From Candidatus Heimdallarchaeota archaeon (GTDB lineage Archaea; Asgardarchaeota; Heimdallarchaeia; Heimdallarchaeales; Heimdallarchaeaceae): a stretch of DNA of 22,001 nt. Below, one piece after another: positions 9,171 through 18,310 of this stretch (positions are counted from its first letter, which is position 1; the number at the start of each line of letters is the position of its first letter). The position numbers and the translations under genes were made by a program. The stretch is from the NCBI GenBank assembly GCA_030668875.1, contig DAOVER010000047.1:1-22001 (forward strand). Direction: 5' to 3'. A model generated the notes under the pieces. That model was given only the letters and a program-made list of their open reading frames with translations, had not been told where the DNA came from and did no database searches.

Positions 9171-10244
9171 ATGTTTGAAAATGACTATGACATGGCTTTA
9201 TCCAATGAAGACTTATTTATGATAATACTTGGAGGATTTGCTTTTCTTTTCTCGTTTACAGATATTACCGGACCACAAGCTGGTATTTCCCTTCCTATAA
9301 CTATATTTTTCGTGATCGGTTGGGGAATTGTGAGATTCAGGAGACGCCCTCTTCCAAAACAAGTTCAATCAACCCGTTTCATTTATTTATCTTTAATAAA
9401 AACAATCAGGAATTATACTCTCTTTTCGATCATCATTCAAAACATATTTCTCCTAAGTGGCTATGTTCAACCTATCAATGACGAAGCAATTATAATAAAA
9501 ATAGCCAATTTTGTTATGTTAATAGTCGTGTCCATATTTGAGATTGCAGGACATATCACTGTTCCTGATGATCTCCACGTTTTTCATTTAATCGAAGGGG
9601 AGGACGAGGAAACAATCAAGAAGAATCGGTTTTCTCTTCTTTATGGTCTCAAATTTTGGATGTGGTTAAGTATTACTTCATTAATTGTACTTGGAGCTAC
9701 AGCTTATCCATTTTATACAGCGTTTTTCGTTGCGTTTAACAACAATCAAATATTGATTGTTATTTTTCAATTTGTAGCTCTCCTTCTTGGAGCAGGTCTT
9801 TTTGTATATACTTATTTCAATACGATGTCCTTTGGTAAACTTAAGAAACCAGAAATGGTAATCAAAGCTGTTAACTACTATAATACTGTAGAGTTAAGAG
9901 AAAGAAGTTACGAGATTTTGGAGAATTATCTAGAAAACAAACATGAAAATCTTGGCATCCTATCTAAACTAGCTACTATGAATACACAAGATGAAAATTA
10001 TCATAAAGTACTCGATCTAACAAGAAGGATTCTTGATGAAACAGAGGAGAAGGAGATTAATGTCCCACACATGATAGCTAGAGCTCATCTACTTCAAGCA
10101 ATCAGCTTAAAAGCACTGGAAAATTTCAAATTGGCTTATGAAGAAGTAACGAAATCACTTCATTACATACCAGAAAATGATGTCGCAAGAAAGCTTCGAA
10201 GGGATTTAAGAAGAATCCTAAAGGTTAAGGTTCAAGAAAAATAA
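9171..10244 (+). CDS. Polytopic membrane protein (~6 TM) with C-terminal TPR-like repeats
   Basis: Hydrophobic segments across residues ~15-216. The C-terminal AHLLQAISLKALENFKLAYEEVTKSLHYIPENDVA fits the TPR consensus. Confidence 0.7.
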   Translation: MFENDYDMALSNEDLFMIILGGFAFLFSFTDITGPQAGISLPITIFFVIGWGIVRFRRRPLPKQVQSTRFIYLSLIKTIRNYTLFSIIIQNIFLLSGYVQPINDEAIIIKIANFVMLIVVSIFEIAGHITVPDDLHVFHLIEGEDEETIKKNRFSLLYGLKFWMWLSITSLIVLGATAYPFYTAFFVAFNNNQILIVIFQFVALLLGAGLFVYTYFNTMSFGKLKKPEMVIKAVNYYNTVELRERSYEILENYLENKHENLGILSKLATMNTQDENYHKVLDLTRRILDETEEKEINVPHMIARAHLLQAISLKALENFKLAYEEVTKSLHYIPENDVARKLRRDLRRILKVKVQEK

Positions 10245-10344
10245 TAGATAGCTTTCTAATTTCTATTATTCTCAGCTTTTTCTTTAATTATTACAGTTAC
10301 AATTTACACAATGATTTTAAATGATACATCTATAGCAAATTCAG

Positions 10345-11226
10345 ATGAGAATATGTTCCATCGATTCTACACTTAATGAGGAAATACCTGCAAAACAGAT
10401 AGCAAAACTAATAGATTCAGATATAGCTAAGGTAGAAATCAATATTGTGAAAAAGAAGGTTGGAACGATAGGGTTAGCTAGAAAAACGCTTGAAAAATCA
10501 CATGTTCTTTTTATAACCTTGCCTAAGAAAAAGATCACTCAAGAAATTTATATAGAGCTCATTTCATATATTGACATAGGTGGAACACTTATACTAACCT
10601 TGCCTTCTCCACCTTGGGAAGATTTGGGAAGATTCTTTGAAGAAATGATTAATGAATTAGGTATAACATTTCAGCATAAATATGTATACGGTTTACCAAA
10701 AATACCCTCTGATACTCGCTTAATTGGATCAACATTAACCATAACGAAAGCTCATGTAATAAATTATAATAAGAATAAGGATTTTCTTAAAGAAAATGGT
10801 ATAAAGAAATATCTTCCATTAGCTCTAATGGACAAGAAACCAGTGATTCTAGCCGGTTACAAACGCAGAGGAAAATTTATTATTATAAGTTCTCCCGAGA
10901 TATTTACCGATATAAATTCTGATTTTCTAAACAGATTAGTTCTCCTTTCTTCACAGAAAATCGACTATAAATTATCCGAAGAGAATGTGAAATATAATAT
11001 CGGAAAGAGCAATTTTAGTTTACAACTTCAACATGGCAGTTTACAAAGCTATTTATTGAGCCTTTTCCATTATAATTTCATGTTTCTTCAAGAAGAAGTA
11101 GAATTTACTTCTAAAGAAGACTTAACAGAAAGAATATACAATGTATTAGTGAAACAGAATGTAATCGGTGATTTACCTTCAAAACAAGATATATTCAAAA
11201 TAATTGATAAATTTAAGATTAAGTGA
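10345..11226 (+). CDS. Soluble GIFT-domain (GldG/IFT52; class-I GATase-like fold) protein
   Basis: HVLFITLPKKKITQEIYIELISYIDIGGTLIL, ELGITF and PVILAGYKRRGKFIIISSPEIFTD follow the GIFT/DUF4350 pattern. No signal peptide or TM segment. Confidence 0.6.
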   Translation: MRICSIDSTLNEEIPAKQIAKLIDSDIAKVEINIVKKKVGTIGLARKTLEKSHVLFITLPKKKITQEIYIELISYIDIGGTLILTLPSPPWEDLGRFFEEMINELGITFQHKYVYGLPKIPSDTRLIGSTLTITKAHVINYNKNKDFLKENGIKKYLPLALMDKKPVILAGYKRRGKFIIISSPEIFTDINSDFLNRLVLLSSQKIDYKLSEENVKYNIGKSNFSLQLQHGSLQSYLLSLFHYNFMFLQEEVEFTSKEDLTERIYNVLVKQNVIGDLPSKQDIFKIIDKFKIK

Positions 11227-12299
11227 CTAATATGCTGATAAGAAGGATTTTAATTGTTACTGATAGCGGTCTCCCAGTTTTCGATTACGAAGAATATTCA
11301 AGAGGAGACGAAGTTCTTGTCTCAGGATTAGTTACAGCAATTCTCAAATTTGCAGAAGAAACAGAAAAAGAGCGCCTTTCTAGAGTTTATTTTGAAGAAA
11401 GTCTTTATATTCTTACAGCAATTGAATCTGTAATCCTCATTTTTCAGATTTCAGATGAAATGCCAGGAGAATATGCTGAGTATGTGAGTAATCAAATCAC
11501 TGAAAGTTTCATTAAGAACTACCGAGAAGAAGTTAAGAGGTTCCGAGGAGATGTTTCTGTTTTTCGTGGTTTTCAAGAAACATGTGAGGAAATTCTATTA
11601 CAGAATGGAGTAACAATTGCCAACATTTTAATTGATACACCAGAAGGAGAAAAACTTAAAGCGTGGTGTTTGTATTCGCTAGAAAATGAACCACTGATAG
11701 TTAAAGCAAATTCTCCGAATTATAATATTGACAGTTTTACTATTTTTCAAGTACTTGGAAAAAGTTTCAGAAAAGTCAGCAAAAATGTGGAAAGATGCTC
11801 AAAAGGCACATGCTTTCATATCACTCATGAAGGTAATCTGGTACAATCAATTCTTTTACCAGCTGTTTTCATAGTTATCGAAACGGCAATAGATGAAATG
11901 GCAGTACAGCGATTTAGACAATTCAAAATTAAATCTCAGCAACAACTTGAAGGTATAATCAATGAATTCTACAAGCCTGATAAGATTCAAATTTATAGTA
12001 AAAAGGAGTTTTTGGGCACTCCAGAACAAACTATGAATCCAAGATATAAAATTCTCTATGATCTTTTTAGCGCAGCTGAAAAGGGTTTAGAGTATCTCTA
12101 CAAATCACCAATTCACGTTCAGATTTTAAATATGGATAAAGGAGTAATGGCGATAATTAAACTTGTTAATAGAGTTGCCTTCTTAGAATTTGAATCACAA
12201 CAAACTTCTGCAAGTATAATTGAATCAACAAAAAGAATGTTTGAGCAAGAACAGCTAATTAAGGACGATACCCTTGAAGCAATGCTAGAAAAATCGTAG
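11223..12299 (+). CDS. Longin-domain protein with two further longin/roadblock-like repeats (GTG start overlapping the upstream TGA; alternative ATG 11232)
   Basis: N-terminal IRRILIVTDSGLPVF...DEVLVSGLVTAILKFAEE...F..F is the Asgard-type longin signature. Two further ~110-120 aa units show a helix-beta-beta-helix-beta-beta-beta-helix pattern. Confidence 0.65.
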   Translation: MTNMLIRRILIVTDSGLPVFDYEEYSRGDEVLVSGLVTAILKFAEETEKERLSRVYFEESLYILTAIESVILIFQISDEMPGEYAEYVSNQITESFIKNYREEVKRFRGDVSVFRGFQETCEEILLQNGVTIANILIDTPEGEKLKAWCLYSLENEPLIVKANSPNYNIDSFTIFQVLGKSFRKVSKNVERCSKGTCFHITHEGNLVQSILLPAVFIVIETAIDEMAVQRFRQFKIKSQQQLEGIINEFYKPDKIQIYSKKEFLGTPEQTMNPRYKILYDLFSAAEKGLEYLYKSPIHVQILNMDKGVMAIIKLVNRVAFLEFESQQTSASIIESTKRMFEQEQLIKDDTLEAMLEKS

Positions 12300-13455: not shown

Positions 13456-14031
13456 GTGATAAACATGAACTATGAATTAAGAAAATCGGACTCCCTCGCA
13501 CATGCGACTGGATCTTTTAAACAAAATCTGAAAGAAGTAAATCTCAGATGGAACGAACACATAGTTAAACTAGGTAACCTAGGCCCTCAGATTATTGGAG
13601 GTATAAATGAATCAATAAAAAGAAGTAAGAATGAAAAGGTCGCAACAATAGTGACATCATCTCTTTCCGAATTTAGTCAAGTCCTGAATAGCATGGATAA
13701 AACTAATGCTGAAATGGTTGATCTTATGATAGATATAGAAGGTTTGGACTTTCCTCTTAAGACGCCAAAGAAAATTTTGAATCTGTGTGAAAAAGAAGAG
13801 GATAATTTAAAAATGCTACATAATATAATTCGAAATTTGAGTAAAACGTATAATTTTTTTGACAAAGTAAAAAAAGATAAGGGGTTACTTTTGAATTCTT
13901 TGAACTCTTTTGAAACAGCTTTCTCTGATCTACAAGAAATAATTAAGCAAAGTTTAGACTTAACTGCTTTACTTGTAGCAGAACTGGATAAAGAACATAG
14001 CAAAGCTAAGAGATATTTAGGAAAAGTGTAA
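13456..14031 (+). CDS. Hypothetical all-helical / coiled-coil protein (ATG start probably 13465)
   Basis: 191-codon ORF with a GGTGA RBS. Long amphipathic helices, no catalytic motifs. Confidence 0.7.
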   Translation: MINMNYELRKSDSLAHATGSFKQNLKEVNLRWNEHIVKLGNLGPQIIGGINESIKRSKNEKVATIVTSSLSEFSQVLNSMDKTNAEMVDLMIDIEGLDFPLKTPKKILNLCEKEEDNLKMLHNIIRNLSKTYNFFDKVKKDKGLLLNSLNSFETAFSDLQEIIKQSLDLTALLVAELDKEHSKAKRYLGKV

Positions 14032-16682: not shown

Positions 16683-17582
16683 CTATCTTCCTTTATTTCT
16701 TGCCTTTTCTACTTTTTTTGCACGTCTCTTTGCTTCTCTTTCTTCGATTTTCCTTTCTTTTTCTCTTCTTTTCTCCCTTTCCTTCATGTATTTCTCTTTA
16801 TCTTTTTCCTGCTTTTGTTTCTCTTTTTCATCCAATTTCTTAACTTCTTTCTTAAGAATAACAGGAATGGGAAGGTCTTTTGTTTTCTCAGTAACTCTAG
16901 AAAAGAACTTCAAAGTTGTCATGGCAAACTTTGTTAAATGTAGTAGATCTGCTGGTTGCTTTGTTAGATTAAACTTCATTTCGAAATTAGGTTCATCGGT
17001 TCTTACTGAAATCCATTGCAATTCCTTAGGATAATTCTCCAAGCTTGTTGTAAACATTTTACTGTTAACTAGTTGTTTAATAGCTCGTGATCTATTAGAT
17101 TTTACAAGGAATTTTCCATTGAGTTCAGGCTTAGGGGTTGGAATATCGTCAAGTTCAACAAGATAGTCAAAATCCTTTTTTATAGCTGATTTTAGACGAT
17201 AGGGAATCATTTCAAAAACTACTCTAGGTTTATCCTTAAAATTTGCTGCAATTCCAAATGAATCTTTATTCTTATAGAACAGTCCATCAACTAGCATTGT
17301 TGGAAAACTAGTTCTAGGTAAGAGAATAAGCCACACTGATGCGCTTTTAAGTAGAAAATCATCATTTAGTTGACATCTTATCTCTACTTGTCGATCGTTC
17401 GGATCTTTTCTGGCATAGTTAGTAATGTAGGGATCCAATGCTGTTAGGACATCATCAAAGTATGTTTCCTTCTTCTTTTTATTAGCTATTTTTCCCCAAA
17501 TATAAAATGCAGCATACAAACCTATGAAAATTAAAATAGGTAGCAACATTACTAAAATATCTATAATACCGTCAGAAGCCAT
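16683..17582 (-). CDS. Single-TM protein resembling CCDC47 / DUF1682 (PAT complex subunit)
   Basis: N-terminal TM ending [16 protein letters not shown], a globular alpha/beta domain and a highly charged K/E/R C-terminal coiled coil. Segment-by-segment resemblance to recalled CCDC47 (see findings). Confidence 0.65.
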   Translation of the reverse strand: [299 protein letters not shown]

Positions 17583-17650: not shown

Positions 17651-18214
17651 TTAAATTTTCATCTCATTGCTCTTCTTTTTGATAATAATACGACCTAATC
17701 TAAGAAAAGCATCATAAACATTGCTTCCAGTTAAAGCGCATGTTGAAAAGTATTCTACAAGTTCAATGTTCTTGAATTTATTTTTAAACTCACTAAGAAA
17801 GTTTTTAGACTGTTCATCAAAAAGCTGATTTTGTTCAAACTCTAGAAGATCATTTTTATTTCCAAGTATCAACAAGGGGATTTTATAATCTATAGAAGAA
17901 TCAAGTTCCTCTAACCATCTATTTAGATTAGCAAAAGTTTCAGGTCGGCTTTTATCGAAAACTAGAAGACCACCTTCAGTTCCAGCGTATTGCTTGGTTC
18001 TAATTTCTTGAAACTCCTTCTGACCACCCATATCCCATATCTGAAAAGTTATTTCCATATCTTCATCTAAATATTTGTGAGTGGCTAAATCTACACCTAA
18101 AGTACTCATATATTTTTCATCTAGATGCAAACCCATGAAAGAACGTTTCAAAGTAGTTTTTCCAGTAGCATAATCTCCTAACAAAACTATTTTAACAGCA
18201 CCAAATATGGACAT
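17651..18214 (-). CDS. Rab-like small GTPase (Ras superfamily); start moved from 18280 to ATG 18214
   Basis: G1 GDYATGKT, G2 STLGVDL, G3 WDMGGQ, G4 NKND, G5 TCAL. The 18280 start would leave only 30 nt to the divergent purA. Confidence 0.93.
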   Translation of the reverse strand: MSIFGAVKIVLLGDYATGKTTLKRSFMGLHLDEKYMSTLGVDLATHKYLDEDMEITFQIWDMGGQKEFQEIRTKQYAGTEGGLLVFDKSRPETFANLNRWLEELDSSIDYKIPLLILGNKNDLLEFEQNQLFDEQSKNFLSEFKNKFKNIELVEYFSTCALTGSNVYDAFLRLGRIIIKKKSNEMKI

Positions 18215-18310
18215 ATGTATGCTTACACTTGAAAGGGAGTTTATTAGGTTTTCTAATTTTCCCAGTTGTTGTAACAACATTTAACAATAAGTTCCTAATT
18301 TGTCACGTGT

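What the first reader, a model, noticed from the sequence alone, without database searches (positions are those of the whole stretch)
16683..17582. Archaeal CCDC47-like protein: possible prokaryotic ancestor of the ER PAT-complex / multipass translocon subunit
Seen in the sequence: an N-terminal TM helix, a ~200-aa soluble domain and a K/E/R-rich tail. Compared with human CCDC47 recalled from memory, colinear blocks match along the whole length: [16 protein letters not shown] vs [29 protein letters not shown] vs [37 protein letters not shown] vs [34 protein letters not shown]...LVNSKM...[14 protein letters not shown] vs LPDSLAILSE...MMDTKM...LTHYADKIESVHFS; then a charged coiled coil ([10 protein letters not shown] vs RREEKKRAEK). 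Established: CCDC47 with Asterix forms the ribosome-associated PAT intramembrane chaperone of eukaryotes. Inference: this lineage may have a PAT-like co-translational membrane-protein biogenesis factor. I cannot verify whether this has been reported.
Basis: partly seen in the sequence, partly recalled or inferred. Interest (0 to 1): 0.85.

Follow-up and report, generated by a model that had tools for sequence, protein, structure and literature searches.

The report
Heimdall archaeal CCDC47 homologue with tail
This gene of a Heimdall-group Asgard archaeon encodes a small membrane-anchored protein that is a genuine relative of eukaryotic CCDC47, the ribosome-docking scaffold of the ER machinery for multi-pass membrane proteins. 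Unlike most archaeal relatives it keeps a long basic C-terminal helix, but what it does in the archaeon is still inferred.

Summary
The ORF at 16683-17582 (-) is real and encodes 299 aa. It has one N-terminal TM helix, a roughly 200-aa alpha/beta domain and a 48-residue K/R/E helix.

Homology to CCDC47 (Pfam PF07946/DUF1682) holds up:
- The tail-less core hits PF07946 at E 2.6e-6, better than the full length.
- 24 of 27 close relatives, and tail-less distant relatives, also hit it.
- The AlphaFold model (pLDDT 91.5) has CCDC47 chains 7TM3_4, 9I78_4 and 6W6L_7 as its three best PDB matches (Z 18, 16, 12).

So the similarity is not confined to the charged tail.

The family is near-universal in the window's own class (taken to be Heimdallarchaeia) and patchy elsewhere in Asgard. 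The long tail occurs only in Heimdallarchaeaceae, where its length is fixed and its dN/dS (about 0.10) is close to the core's (0.08).

Limits on the reading:
- No Asterix, TMEM147 or SND3 homologue was found.
- Bacterial proteins, TtfA and DUF3137 share the fold.
- In one Asgard family (f31, unnamed) a relative sits in a CstA/ArsA module.
- A ribosome/SecY role is inferred, not shown.

Databases already tag some relatives as DUF1682. No paper in the searched library reports an archaeal CCDC47. This scan found the family before in at least 8 other genomes.

The parts
16683..17582 (-). Whole gene for the 299-aa CCDC47-like protein (P0001), stop codon included
   Evidence: ORF list and translation. 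There are 32 close homologues in Heimdallarchaeota MAGs. dN/dS is about 0.08-0.10.
17493..17561 (-). Single N-terminal transmembrane anchor (residues 8-30). Seven residues lie outside and a KKKK cluster lies inside.
   Evidence: It is the only hydrophobic window (mean KD 2.63). It is part of helix 3-52 in the model. It aligns with the CCDC47 TM region, chain residue 135 onward.
16875..17492 (-). Cytoplasmic core (residues 31-236): the post-TM helix plus the alpha/beta globular DUF1682 domain
   Evidence: PF07946 E 2.6e-6 for residues 1-238. 6w6l_7 (CCDC47) aligns at Z 12.4, rmsd 3.6 A over 190 residues, model 31-236 against chain 157-398. pLDDT is mostly above 90.
16830..16874 (-). Linker (residues 237-251), LPIPV..KK motif, flexible
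   Evidence: The pLDDT block for 241-250 is 57. The sequence is conserved within Heimdallarchaeaceae, and dN/dS is 0.05.
16686..16829 (-). C-terminal basic charged helix (residues 252-299; net +11). It corresponds in position to the CCDC47 latch/C-terminal helices.
   Evidence: Helix 252-298 has pLDDT 82-93. The tail is 62-70 aa in 22 of 24 distinct Heimdallarchaeaceae CDS, with dN/dS 0.10 against 0.08 for the core. It is absent or short (0-32 aa) in the non-Heimdallarchaeaceae Asgard relatives sampled. 7tm3_4 aligns over model 9-299.
17651..18280 (-). Context only: a Ras/Roc-type small GTPase directly upstream on the same strand, with a 68-nt gap
   Evidence: Pfam Ras 1.6e-32 and TIGR00231. 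The order PurA(opposite)-GTPase-CCDC47-like-DegV-(Nnr opposite) is kept in about 36 Heimdallarchaeaceae loci. No functional link is shown.

Best explanation
The gene encodes a true archaeal member of the CCDC47/DUF1682 family, which I rate at about 0.9 for homology. It is a stripped-down form. A 7-residue extracellular N-terminus replaces the eukaryotic signal peptide and acidic lumenal domain. After that come the same TM anchor and cytoplasmic alpha/beta domain. In Heimdallarchaeaceae only, a roughly 48-residue basic single helix follows, at the position of the CCDC47 latch/C-terminal helices.

Most likely mechanism (about 0.45, inferred and not shown): the protein is anchored in the plasma membrane with its globular domain and basic helix in the cytoplasm. 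There it docks on membrane-bound translating ribosomes next to SecYE-beta. The basic helix lies along rRNA near the tunnel exit. This positions or gates SecY and favours hand-over of transmembrane segments to the archaeal Oxa1-type insertase. This genome encodes an EMC3/TMCO1-family protein and a probable EMC6-like partner.

Shown here: homology, fold, predicted topology, purifying selection on core and tail, and phyletic spread. Inferred: ribosome/SecY contact and a role in membrane-protein biogenesis. No Asterix-like partner was found, so a bona fide PAT complex is not claimed.
For: Profile evidence:
- The P0001 core (1-238) hits PF07946 at E 2.6e-6, 27.3 bits, and all 10 cores tested hit it.
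- 24 of 27 family members hit it, best E 5.3e-11.
- Tail-less distant relatives hit profile positions 8 to about 250-270, up to 29.7 bits, above the 27.7 cut-off.

Fold evidence:
- Model pLDDT is 91.5.
- Foldseek's top three are 7tm3_4 (E 3.7e-10), 9i78_4 and 6w6l_7.
- VIA gives Z 18.0, 16.2 and 12.4. The next unrelated fold is below Z 7.
- 7tm3_4 and 6w6l_7 are named CCDC47. The chain identity of 9i78_4 was not looked up; its entry paper describes ctCCDC47 in that translocon.

Architecture: one TM with positive-inside topology, and a basic tail.

Selection: dN/dS is 0.08 for the core and 0.10 for the tail, and tail length is fixed at about 63 aa.

Spread: 108 of 399 Asgard genomes. Within the window's class: f1 24/29, f5 22/22, f7 11/12.

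Published CCDC47 mechanism: the globular domain binds the ribosome. The positively charged C-terminal helices wedge between Sec61 and rRNA H24 and reach the tunnel exit (PMC7505659; PMC12572126).

The genome also holds SecY, an EMC3/TMCO1-type protein (45.9 bits) and an EMC6-like ORF (E 6.6e-4).
Against: - No Asterix (PF03669) in the genome or the class, and no TMEM147 or SND3.
- Most Asgard relatives lack the tail that in eukaryotes reaches the ribosome, so ribosome docking cannot be the family's general mode.
- The fold is shared with bacterial proteins, with mycobacterial TtfA (Z 10.8), which has been linked to MmpL3-dependent lipid transport (from general knowledge, not checked here), and with DUF3137.
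- In one Asgard family (f31) the relative sits beside CstA and two ArsA/Get3-type ATPases.
- The neighbours here (GTPase, DegV, Nnr, PurA) say nothing about translocation.
- The tail is low-complexity, so its homology to the CCDC47 helices cannot be proven from sequence.
- eL6, a ribosomal contact of CCDC47, is eukaryote-specific (general knowledge).
Confidence: 0.55

Rival explanations
1. It is a member of a wider prokaryotic family of single-pass, CCDC47-fold accessory proteins. These would stabilise or assemble particular membrane transporters or complexes post-translationally, as proposed for TtfA with MmpL3 or for the mini-CCDC47 in the CstA/ArsA-ATPase module. On this view it has no ribosome contact, the eukaryotic translocon role is a later specialisation, and the Heimdallarchaeaceae tail serves another purpose.
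For: - TtfA (6t84) is the next-best structural match after the CCDC47 chains: Z 10.8 over 161 residues.
- Atlas clusters from Chloroflexota and Acidobacteriota match the TM-plus-domain at TM 0.78, rmsd 2.8-3.2 A. This is as good as the eukaryotic CCDC47 cluster.
- In f31 Asgard genomes (L026, L032) the homologue lies next to CstA (1.5e-95) and two ArsA-type ATPases (7.1e-58).
- Most Asgard homologues have no long tail.
Against: - In this genome and throughout Heimdallarchaeaceae the gene is not next to any transporter.
- The tailed form reproduces the full cytoplasmic architecture of CCDC47, and the tail is under purifying selection with fixed length.
- The Pfam model built on eukaryotic CCDC47 recognises the Asgard proteins. 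The TtfA and DUF3137 Pfam models do not hit P0001.
Confidence: 0.25
2. It is a membrane anchor, effector or regulator partner of the upstream Ras-like small GTPase. Together they would form a membrane-associated GTPase module, and the basic tail would bind acidic lipids or the GTPase, not the ribosome.
For: - The GTPase gene is directly upstream, co-oriented, with a 68-nt gap.
- This adjacency holds in about 34 Heimdallarchaeaceae loci across several genera, with GTPase identity 57-92%.
- In f5 genomes two small-GTPase genes lie next to the homologue, convergently.
Against: - The synteny is confined to closely related genomes and includes unrelated housekeeping genes (PurA, DegV, Nnr), so it may reflect relatedness only.
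- Asgard genomes carry many small GTPases, so chance adjacency is plausible.
- The intergenic region holds an A/T-rich TATA-like stretch, so separate promoters are possible.
- Families f4, f7 and f33 keep Nnr nearby but not the GTPase.
Confidence: 0.1
3. The resemblance to CCDC47 is convergent or a chance result, driven by a common alpha/beta fold and a low-complexity tail, and the protein is unrelated to CCDC47.
For: - The full-length protein scores only 14 bits against PF07946, below the cut-off.
- HMMs built from the archaeal family do not retrieve CCDC47 from PDB sequences.
- Sequence identity in the structural alignments is 10-17%.
Against: - The core alone scores 27.3 bits, E 2.6e-6. Many relatives exceed the cut-off and PF07946 is the only consistent family.
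- The three best PDB matches are all CCDC47 entries, with a clear gap to other folds.
- The order TM - helix - domain - C-terminal helix is the same.
- Four blocks are colinear with human CCDC47 at consistent offsets.
Confidence: 0.03

Closest known systems
Eukaryotic CCDC47 (calumin; PAT-complex and multipass/SND3-translocon subunit; Pfam PF07946, formerly DUF1682; PDB 7TM3 chain 4, 6W6L chain 7, 9I78 chain 4)
   Same: - Single TM anchor with C-terminus in the cytoplasm.
- The same TM-plus-alpha/beta globular fold (Z 12-18).
- A basic C-terminal helical extension.
- A profile match over profile positions 8 to about 211 for the core, and 8-322 for the full length.

   Different: - No signal peptide and no acidic lumenal domain (7 residues outside the membrane).
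- About 180 residues shorter.
- The tail is modelled as one continuous helix, not two latch helices plus a terminal segment.
- No Asterix, TMEM147/nicalin/NOMO or SND3 was detected.
- It sits in a plasma membrane, not an ER.
- Ribosome and Sec61 binding are untested.
Tail-less 'mini-CCDC47' proteins of other Asgard lineages, including the copies in the CstA/ArsA-ATPase module
   Same: The same sequence family (E 1e-10 to 1e-32 to P0001) and the same TM-plus-core. Some hit PF07946 above its cut-off.
   Different: They are 212-277 aa, with no tail or a 5-32 residue basic tail. Their gene neighbourhood differs: CstA plus two ArsA-type ATPases in f31, and KaiC-like ATPase and nucleotidyltransferase genes in f4 and f7. 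The long conserved helix is specific to Heimdallarchaeaceae.
Mycobacterial TtfA (trehalose monomycolate transport factor A; PDB 6T84; Pfam PF28092)
   Same: An N-terminal TM anchor followed by a similar alpha/beta domain: Z 10.8, 161 residues, rmsd 4.5 A. An atlas cluster carrying PF28092 also matches.
   Different: There is no Pfam-level sequence match to P0001. It is bacterial. It has no K/R/E helix of this kind.
Bacterial DUF3137 (PF11335) and unnamed Chloroflexota/Acidobacteriota clusters
   Same: Predicted structures match the TM-plus-domain at TM 0.42-0.78. A weak DUF3137 hit was seen for one Asgard relative (E 0.027).
   Different: The link rests on predicted structure and language-model features only. 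Function is unknown and no sequence-level link to P0001 was shown here.

Membership tests
CCDC47 / DUF1682 (Pfam PF07946) | Significant match to the family profile outside the low-complexity tail | tested here: met
   P0001:1-238 gives E 2.6e-6, 27.3 bits against a cut-off of 27.7. All 10 cores tested hit (best 28.9 bits). 24 of 27 full-length relatives hit (best 5.3e-11). Tail-less relatives reach up to 29.7 bits. The window's own full-length protein scores only 14 bits because of the tail.
CCDC47 / DUF1682 (Pfam PF07946) | TM helix continuing into a cytoplasmic alpha/beta globular domain with the CCDC47 fold | tested here: met
   Model pLDDT 91.5. 7tm3_4 Z 18.0; 9i78_4 Z 16.2; 6w6l_7 Z 12.4 at rmsd 3.6 A over 190 residues. 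Unrelated folds score Z below 7.
CCDC47 / DUF1682 (Pfam PF07946) | Single-pass topology with the bulk of the protein in the cytoplasm | tested here: met
   There is one hydrophobic segment (6-30), the N-terminal 7 residues have net charge -1, and KKKK follows the TM. This is a prediction only.
CCDC47 / DUF1682 (Pfam PF07946) | Positively charged C-terminal helices (latch helices / 'coiled coil') that reach the ribosome tunnel exit | tested here: inconclusive
   A 48-residue helix with net charge +11 is present, conserved in length and under purifying selection. Homology of a low-complexity helix, and any ribosome contact, cannot be shown with these tools.
CCDC47 / DUF1682 (Pfam PF07946) | Signal peptide and acidic lumenal (calumin) domain | tested here: not met
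   Only 7 residues precede the TM helix.
PAT complex (CCDC47 + Asterix) | Presence of the obligate partner Asterix/WDR83OS (PF03669) | tested here: inconclusive
   There is no match at E<=10 in the own genome (92% complete). None of 82 class genomes is over the cut-off, and the weak matches contain stop codons. A short, divergent three-TM protein could escape a Pfam search.
Multipass / SND3 translocon | Co-occurrence with Sec61/SecY, an Oxa1-type insertase (TMCO1) with an OPTI/EMC6-like partner, the BOS complex, or SND3 | tested here: inconclusive
   Present: SecY, an EMC3/TMCO1-type protein (45.9 bits) and an EMC6-like ORF (E 6.6e-4, below cut-off). These are general archaeal genes. TMEM147 and SND3/Pho88 were not found.
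Multipass / SND3 translocon | Physical association with translating ribosomes and the Sec channel | not testable with these tools
   This needs biochemistry or cryo-EM/ET.
TtfA (PF28092) | Match to the TtfA profile | tested here: not met
   No PF28092 hit for P0001 or its core at E<=1-10. There is only fold similarity, Z 10.8.

The most novel reading that the evidence does not exclude
Heimdallarchaeaceae may retain, or have independently built, a minimal precursor of the eukaryotic multipass translocon. In it, a plasma-membrane CCDC47 homologue would use its basic C-terminal helix to dock at the ribosome tunnel exit and hold SecY closed, while the Oxa1-type insertase (an EMC3/TMCO1 relative with an EMC6-like partner) inserts transmembrane segments. 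The CCDC47 scaffold and its ribosome-reaching tail would then predate the ER and eukaryotes.
Probability: 0.25. Interest if true: 0.85.

Novelty: new variant of a known kind. Interest (0 to 1): 0.6.

Why it matters
The translocon papers I read treat CCDC47 and the multipass translocon as eukaryotic. Distribution is discussed only within eukaryotes (PMC9630114; PMC12572126). No paper in the searched library links CCDC47 or DUF1682 to archaea.

A bona fide homologue that is near-universal in Heimdallarchaeia, the group usually placed closest to eukaryotes, would add an ER-translocon scaffold to the list of eukaryotic signature proteins. The tailed Heimdallarchaeaceae form carries the element that, in eukaryotes, reaches the ribosome exit tunnel.

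That makes a concrete question testable: did regulation of the Sec channel by a ribosome-bound scaffold exist before the ER?

Two points temper this. The core fold also occurs in bacteria, so the family is not an Asgard-only invention. And databases already label some relatives as DUF1682.

Tried and rejected
- **Sequence and profile searches of PDB** with P0001, A1 and A2 did not retrieve CCDC47. Only charged-tail noise came back. The link shows only from the Pfam side and by structure.
- **Complex prediction** of own SecY (alignment A3) with the CCDC47-like protein (A1) gave no verdict, score 0.00. This is not evidence either way.
- **The search for homologous proteins with alignment A2** returned only the close family.
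- **The search for related loci with A2** failed for lack of a conserved stretch. With A1 it found only Heimdallarchaeota MAGs.
- **Sequencing runs:** no RNA holder is listed. The DNA holders are marine-sediment metagenomes of one study, one of which may be the source.
- **Sigma-70 promoter and intrinsic-terminator scan:** no signal above shuffles, and in any case not suited to archaea.
- **NCBIfam:** no model matches.
- **Literature checks:** the supplement of Eme et al. 2023 (as held) has no CCDC47/DUF1682/PF07946 entry. The recent structure-based ESP papers do not mention the translocon or CCDC47 in their main text.
- **Asterix, TMEM147 and SND3** searches were negative.
- **Contig look-ups for distant relatives:** P0049 lies in an archaeal-looking context, and P0045 returned no DNA.
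- **A tree including eukaryotic CCDC47** could not be built, because no eukaryotic sequence was available through the tools.

Full report
**1. Observation**

The window is AT-rich (GC about 0.29-0.38). It carries a 299-codon ORF at exactly 16683-17582 on the minus strand.

The protein has a single hydrophobic segment at the N-terminus. The best 19-residue Kyte-Doolittle window is residues 6-24 (mean 2.63), and there is no other. Seven residues precede it and KIANKKKKE follows, which predicts an N-out/C-in anchor.

An AlphaFold2 model built on a 37-sequence alignment is confident (mean pLDDT 91.5, pTM 0.75). It shows:
- one helix at 3-52, comprising the TM and a cytoplasmic continuation;
- an alpha/beta domain at 53-233;
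- a flexible linker at 234-251;
- one long helix at 252-298.

The last 48 residues hold 24 K/R, 13 D/E and only four strongly hydrophobic residues. This is a charged single helix, not a classical coiled coil.

The RREEKKRAEK tail fragment was not checked. Their offsets to the archaeal blocks (+126 to +141) are colinear and agree with the ends of the structural alignment.

**2. Is it a CCDC47 homologue?**

The full-length protein hits Pfam PF07946 (CCDC47, formerly DUF1682) only weakly: E 0.028, 14 bits against a cut-off of 27.7, although end to end. Removing the tail improves the score. Residues 1-238 give E 2.6e-6 and 27.3 bits, and all ten Heimdallarchaeaceae cores tested hit PF07946 as the only consistent family.

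Of 27 close relatives, 24 hit the family, best E 5.3e-11. More distant relatives of 225-277 aa, with little or no tail, match profile positions 8 to about 250-270, reaching 29.7 bits.

By structure, Foldseek's three best PDB matches are 7tm3_4 (E 3.7e-10), 9i78_4 and 6w6l_7. VIA-align gives:
- Z 18.0 over 262 residues (model 9-299 against chain 135-447);
- Z 16.2;
- Z 12.4 at rmsd 3.6 A over 190 residues for the globular core alone.

After the fourth match, TtfA at Z 10.8, unrelated folds fall below Z 7. Chains 7tm3_4 and 6w6l_7 are CCDC47 by molecule name. The chain identity of 9i78_4 was not looked up; its entry is the Chaetomium SND3 translocon, whose paper describes ctCCDC47.

It is therefore not met. 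I rate homology at about 0.9.

In the reverse direction, HMMs of the archaeal family do not retrieve CCDC47 from PDB sequences. The relationship is remote.

**3. Where it occurs**

Close homologues come from Heimdallarchaeota/Heimdallarchaeaceae MAGs, including the complete genomes of Candidatus Heimdallarchaeum aukensis and endolithica. NCBI already names a few of them 'DUF1682 domain-containing protein', and many carry a precomputed PF07946 hit.

The window's genome is 3.23 Mb in 99 contigs, 92% complete. Near-identical DNA is held by marine-sediment metagenomes.

A profile search of 399 Asgard genomes found the family in 108. Family and class names are coded in the tool output; from the record titles above I take f1 as Heimdallarchaeaceae and the class as Heimdallarchaeia.
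- It is nearly universal in the window's own class: f1 24/29, f3 3/3, f4 8/12, f5 22/22, f7 11/12.
- It is present in several other families.
- It was not found with this profile in others, for example f20 at 0/135.

**4. What is special about this copy**

The tail after the core is 62-70 residues in 22 of 24 distinct Heimdallarchaeaceae coding sequences; the other two are 32 and 36 residues, the 36-residue one annotated as partial. Net charge is +10 to +20. In the homologues I sampled from other Asgard families the tail is absent or only 2-32 residues long.

A Nei-Gojobori comparison used 16 unsaturated, non-independent pairs. Median dN/dS was 0.10 for the tail helix, 0.08 for the core and 0.05 for the linker. 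The tail is thus a constrained, fixed-length element and not drifting low-complexity sequence.

Only this subfamily reproduces the complete cytoplasmic architecture of CCDC47. Whether the tail is homologous to the CCDC47 latch helices or convergent cannot be decided from such a composition.

**5. Surroundings**

The gene lies in the conserved order PurA (opposite strand), Ras-type GTPase, CCDC47-like, DegV, then Nnr (opposite strand). This order holds in about 36 Heimdallarchaeaceae loci.

In the loci sampled from f4, f7 and f33, only Nnr stays nearby, together with a KaiC-like ATPase (f4, f7) and a nucleotidyltransferase. In f5, two GTPase genes lie next to it. In f31, it sits beside CstA and two ArsA/Get3-type ATPases. 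The last result confirms a lead from earlier notes of this scan.

None of the neighbours here points to protein translocation. The 68-nt gap to the GTPase contains an A/T-rich, TATA-like stretch, and a T-rich tract follows the gene. Co-transcription is open.

**6. Partners**

- Asterix (PF03669) gave no match in the own genome. It gave only sub-threshold hits, most of them interrupted by stop codons, in 82 class genomes.
- TMEM147 and SND3/Pho88 were not found.
- The genome does encode SecY, an EMC3/TMCO1-family insertase next to it, and a probable EMC6-like ORF at E 6.6e-4. These are common archaeal genes.

**7. Mechanism**

In eukaryotes the globular domain of CCDC47 binds the ribosome. Its positively charged C-terminal helices wedge between Sec61 and rRNA H24, reach the tunnel exit and hold Sec61 closed. 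Its TM binds Asterix (PMC7505659; PMC9630114; PMC12572126).

By analogy, the tailed archaeal protein most likely docks on membrane-bound ribosomes beside SecYE-beta and influences hand-over of transmembrane segments to the Oxa1-type insertase. I put this at about 0.45. Every step beyond fold, topology and selection is inference.

The main rival (0.25) is a ribosome-independent accessory role for membrane complexes. This is suggested by fold relatives in bacteria (atlas TM 0.78), by TtfA, by DUF3137 and by the CstA module. A GTPase-linked role (0.1) rests on synteny only.

**8. Novelty**

No paper in the searched library pairs CCDC47 or DUF1682 with Asgard or other archaeal homologues. The ESP papers I checked do not list it. 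Databases partly annotate it, and this scan has reported the family in at least eight other genomes, mostly tail-less forms.

I class it as a new variant of a known kind, of moderate-to-high interest. Homology is solid. Function is unproven, and the family is not restricted to Asgard archaea and eukaryotes.

Noticed in passing
own genome G000:C68:76922-78202 (locus L064:1303-2679, protein P0055): There is a second, divergent SecY paralogue about 5 kb downstream of the canonical SecY (L063). It is 51% identical to the canonical copy and scores 53 bits against Pfam SecY, versus 232 bits for the canonical one. The N-terminal half is conserved and the C-terminal half diverges. The other same-genus genomes sampled show one SecY. 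Most of the f5 genomes sampled carry two SecY-like copies, and some a third, more distant one.
   Followed up: partly
window 17651-18280 (-): A Ras/Roc-type small GTPase lies directly upstream and co-oriented, with a 68-nt gap. The adjacency is conserved in about 34 Heimdallarchaeaceae loci.
   Followed up: partly
loci L026:2323-7974 and L032:8836-14228: In one Asgard family (f31) the CCDC47-like gene sits beside CstA, two small ORFs of about 100 aa, a roughly 210-aa ORF with no Pfam hit, and two ArsA/Get3-type ATPases. This is a conserved module distinct from the context in this window.
   Followed up: partly
loci L022:9974-10864 and L025:7125-7868: In families f13 and f14, a protein with a weak Vps36 (ESCRT-II GLUE)/GRAM-like N-terminus (E 7.7e-5, below cut-off) lies next to or near the CCDC47-like gene.
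   Followed up: no
PDB 6T84 and atlas clusters: Mycobacterial TtfA, bacterial DUF3137 proteins, and unnamed Chloroflexota/Acidobacteriota proteins share the TM-plus-CCDC47-core fold. This suggests a wide prokaryotic superfamily. None of the translocon papers I read mentions it; I did not search for the TtfA structure paper.
   Followed up: partly
own genome G000:C52:13374-13601 (locus L097): A 127-aa ORF matches the EMC6 profile almost end to end (E 6.6e-4, 21.8 bits, just under the cut-off). It is a candidate EMC6/OPTI-like partner of the archaeal Oxa1-type insertase.
   Followed up: no
window 9171-12299 (+) and 13456-14031 (+): Four ORFs of 357, 293, 358 and 191 aa have no Pfam match at E<=1e-5. 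The first three are co-oriented, and the second and third overlap by a few bases.
   Followed up: no
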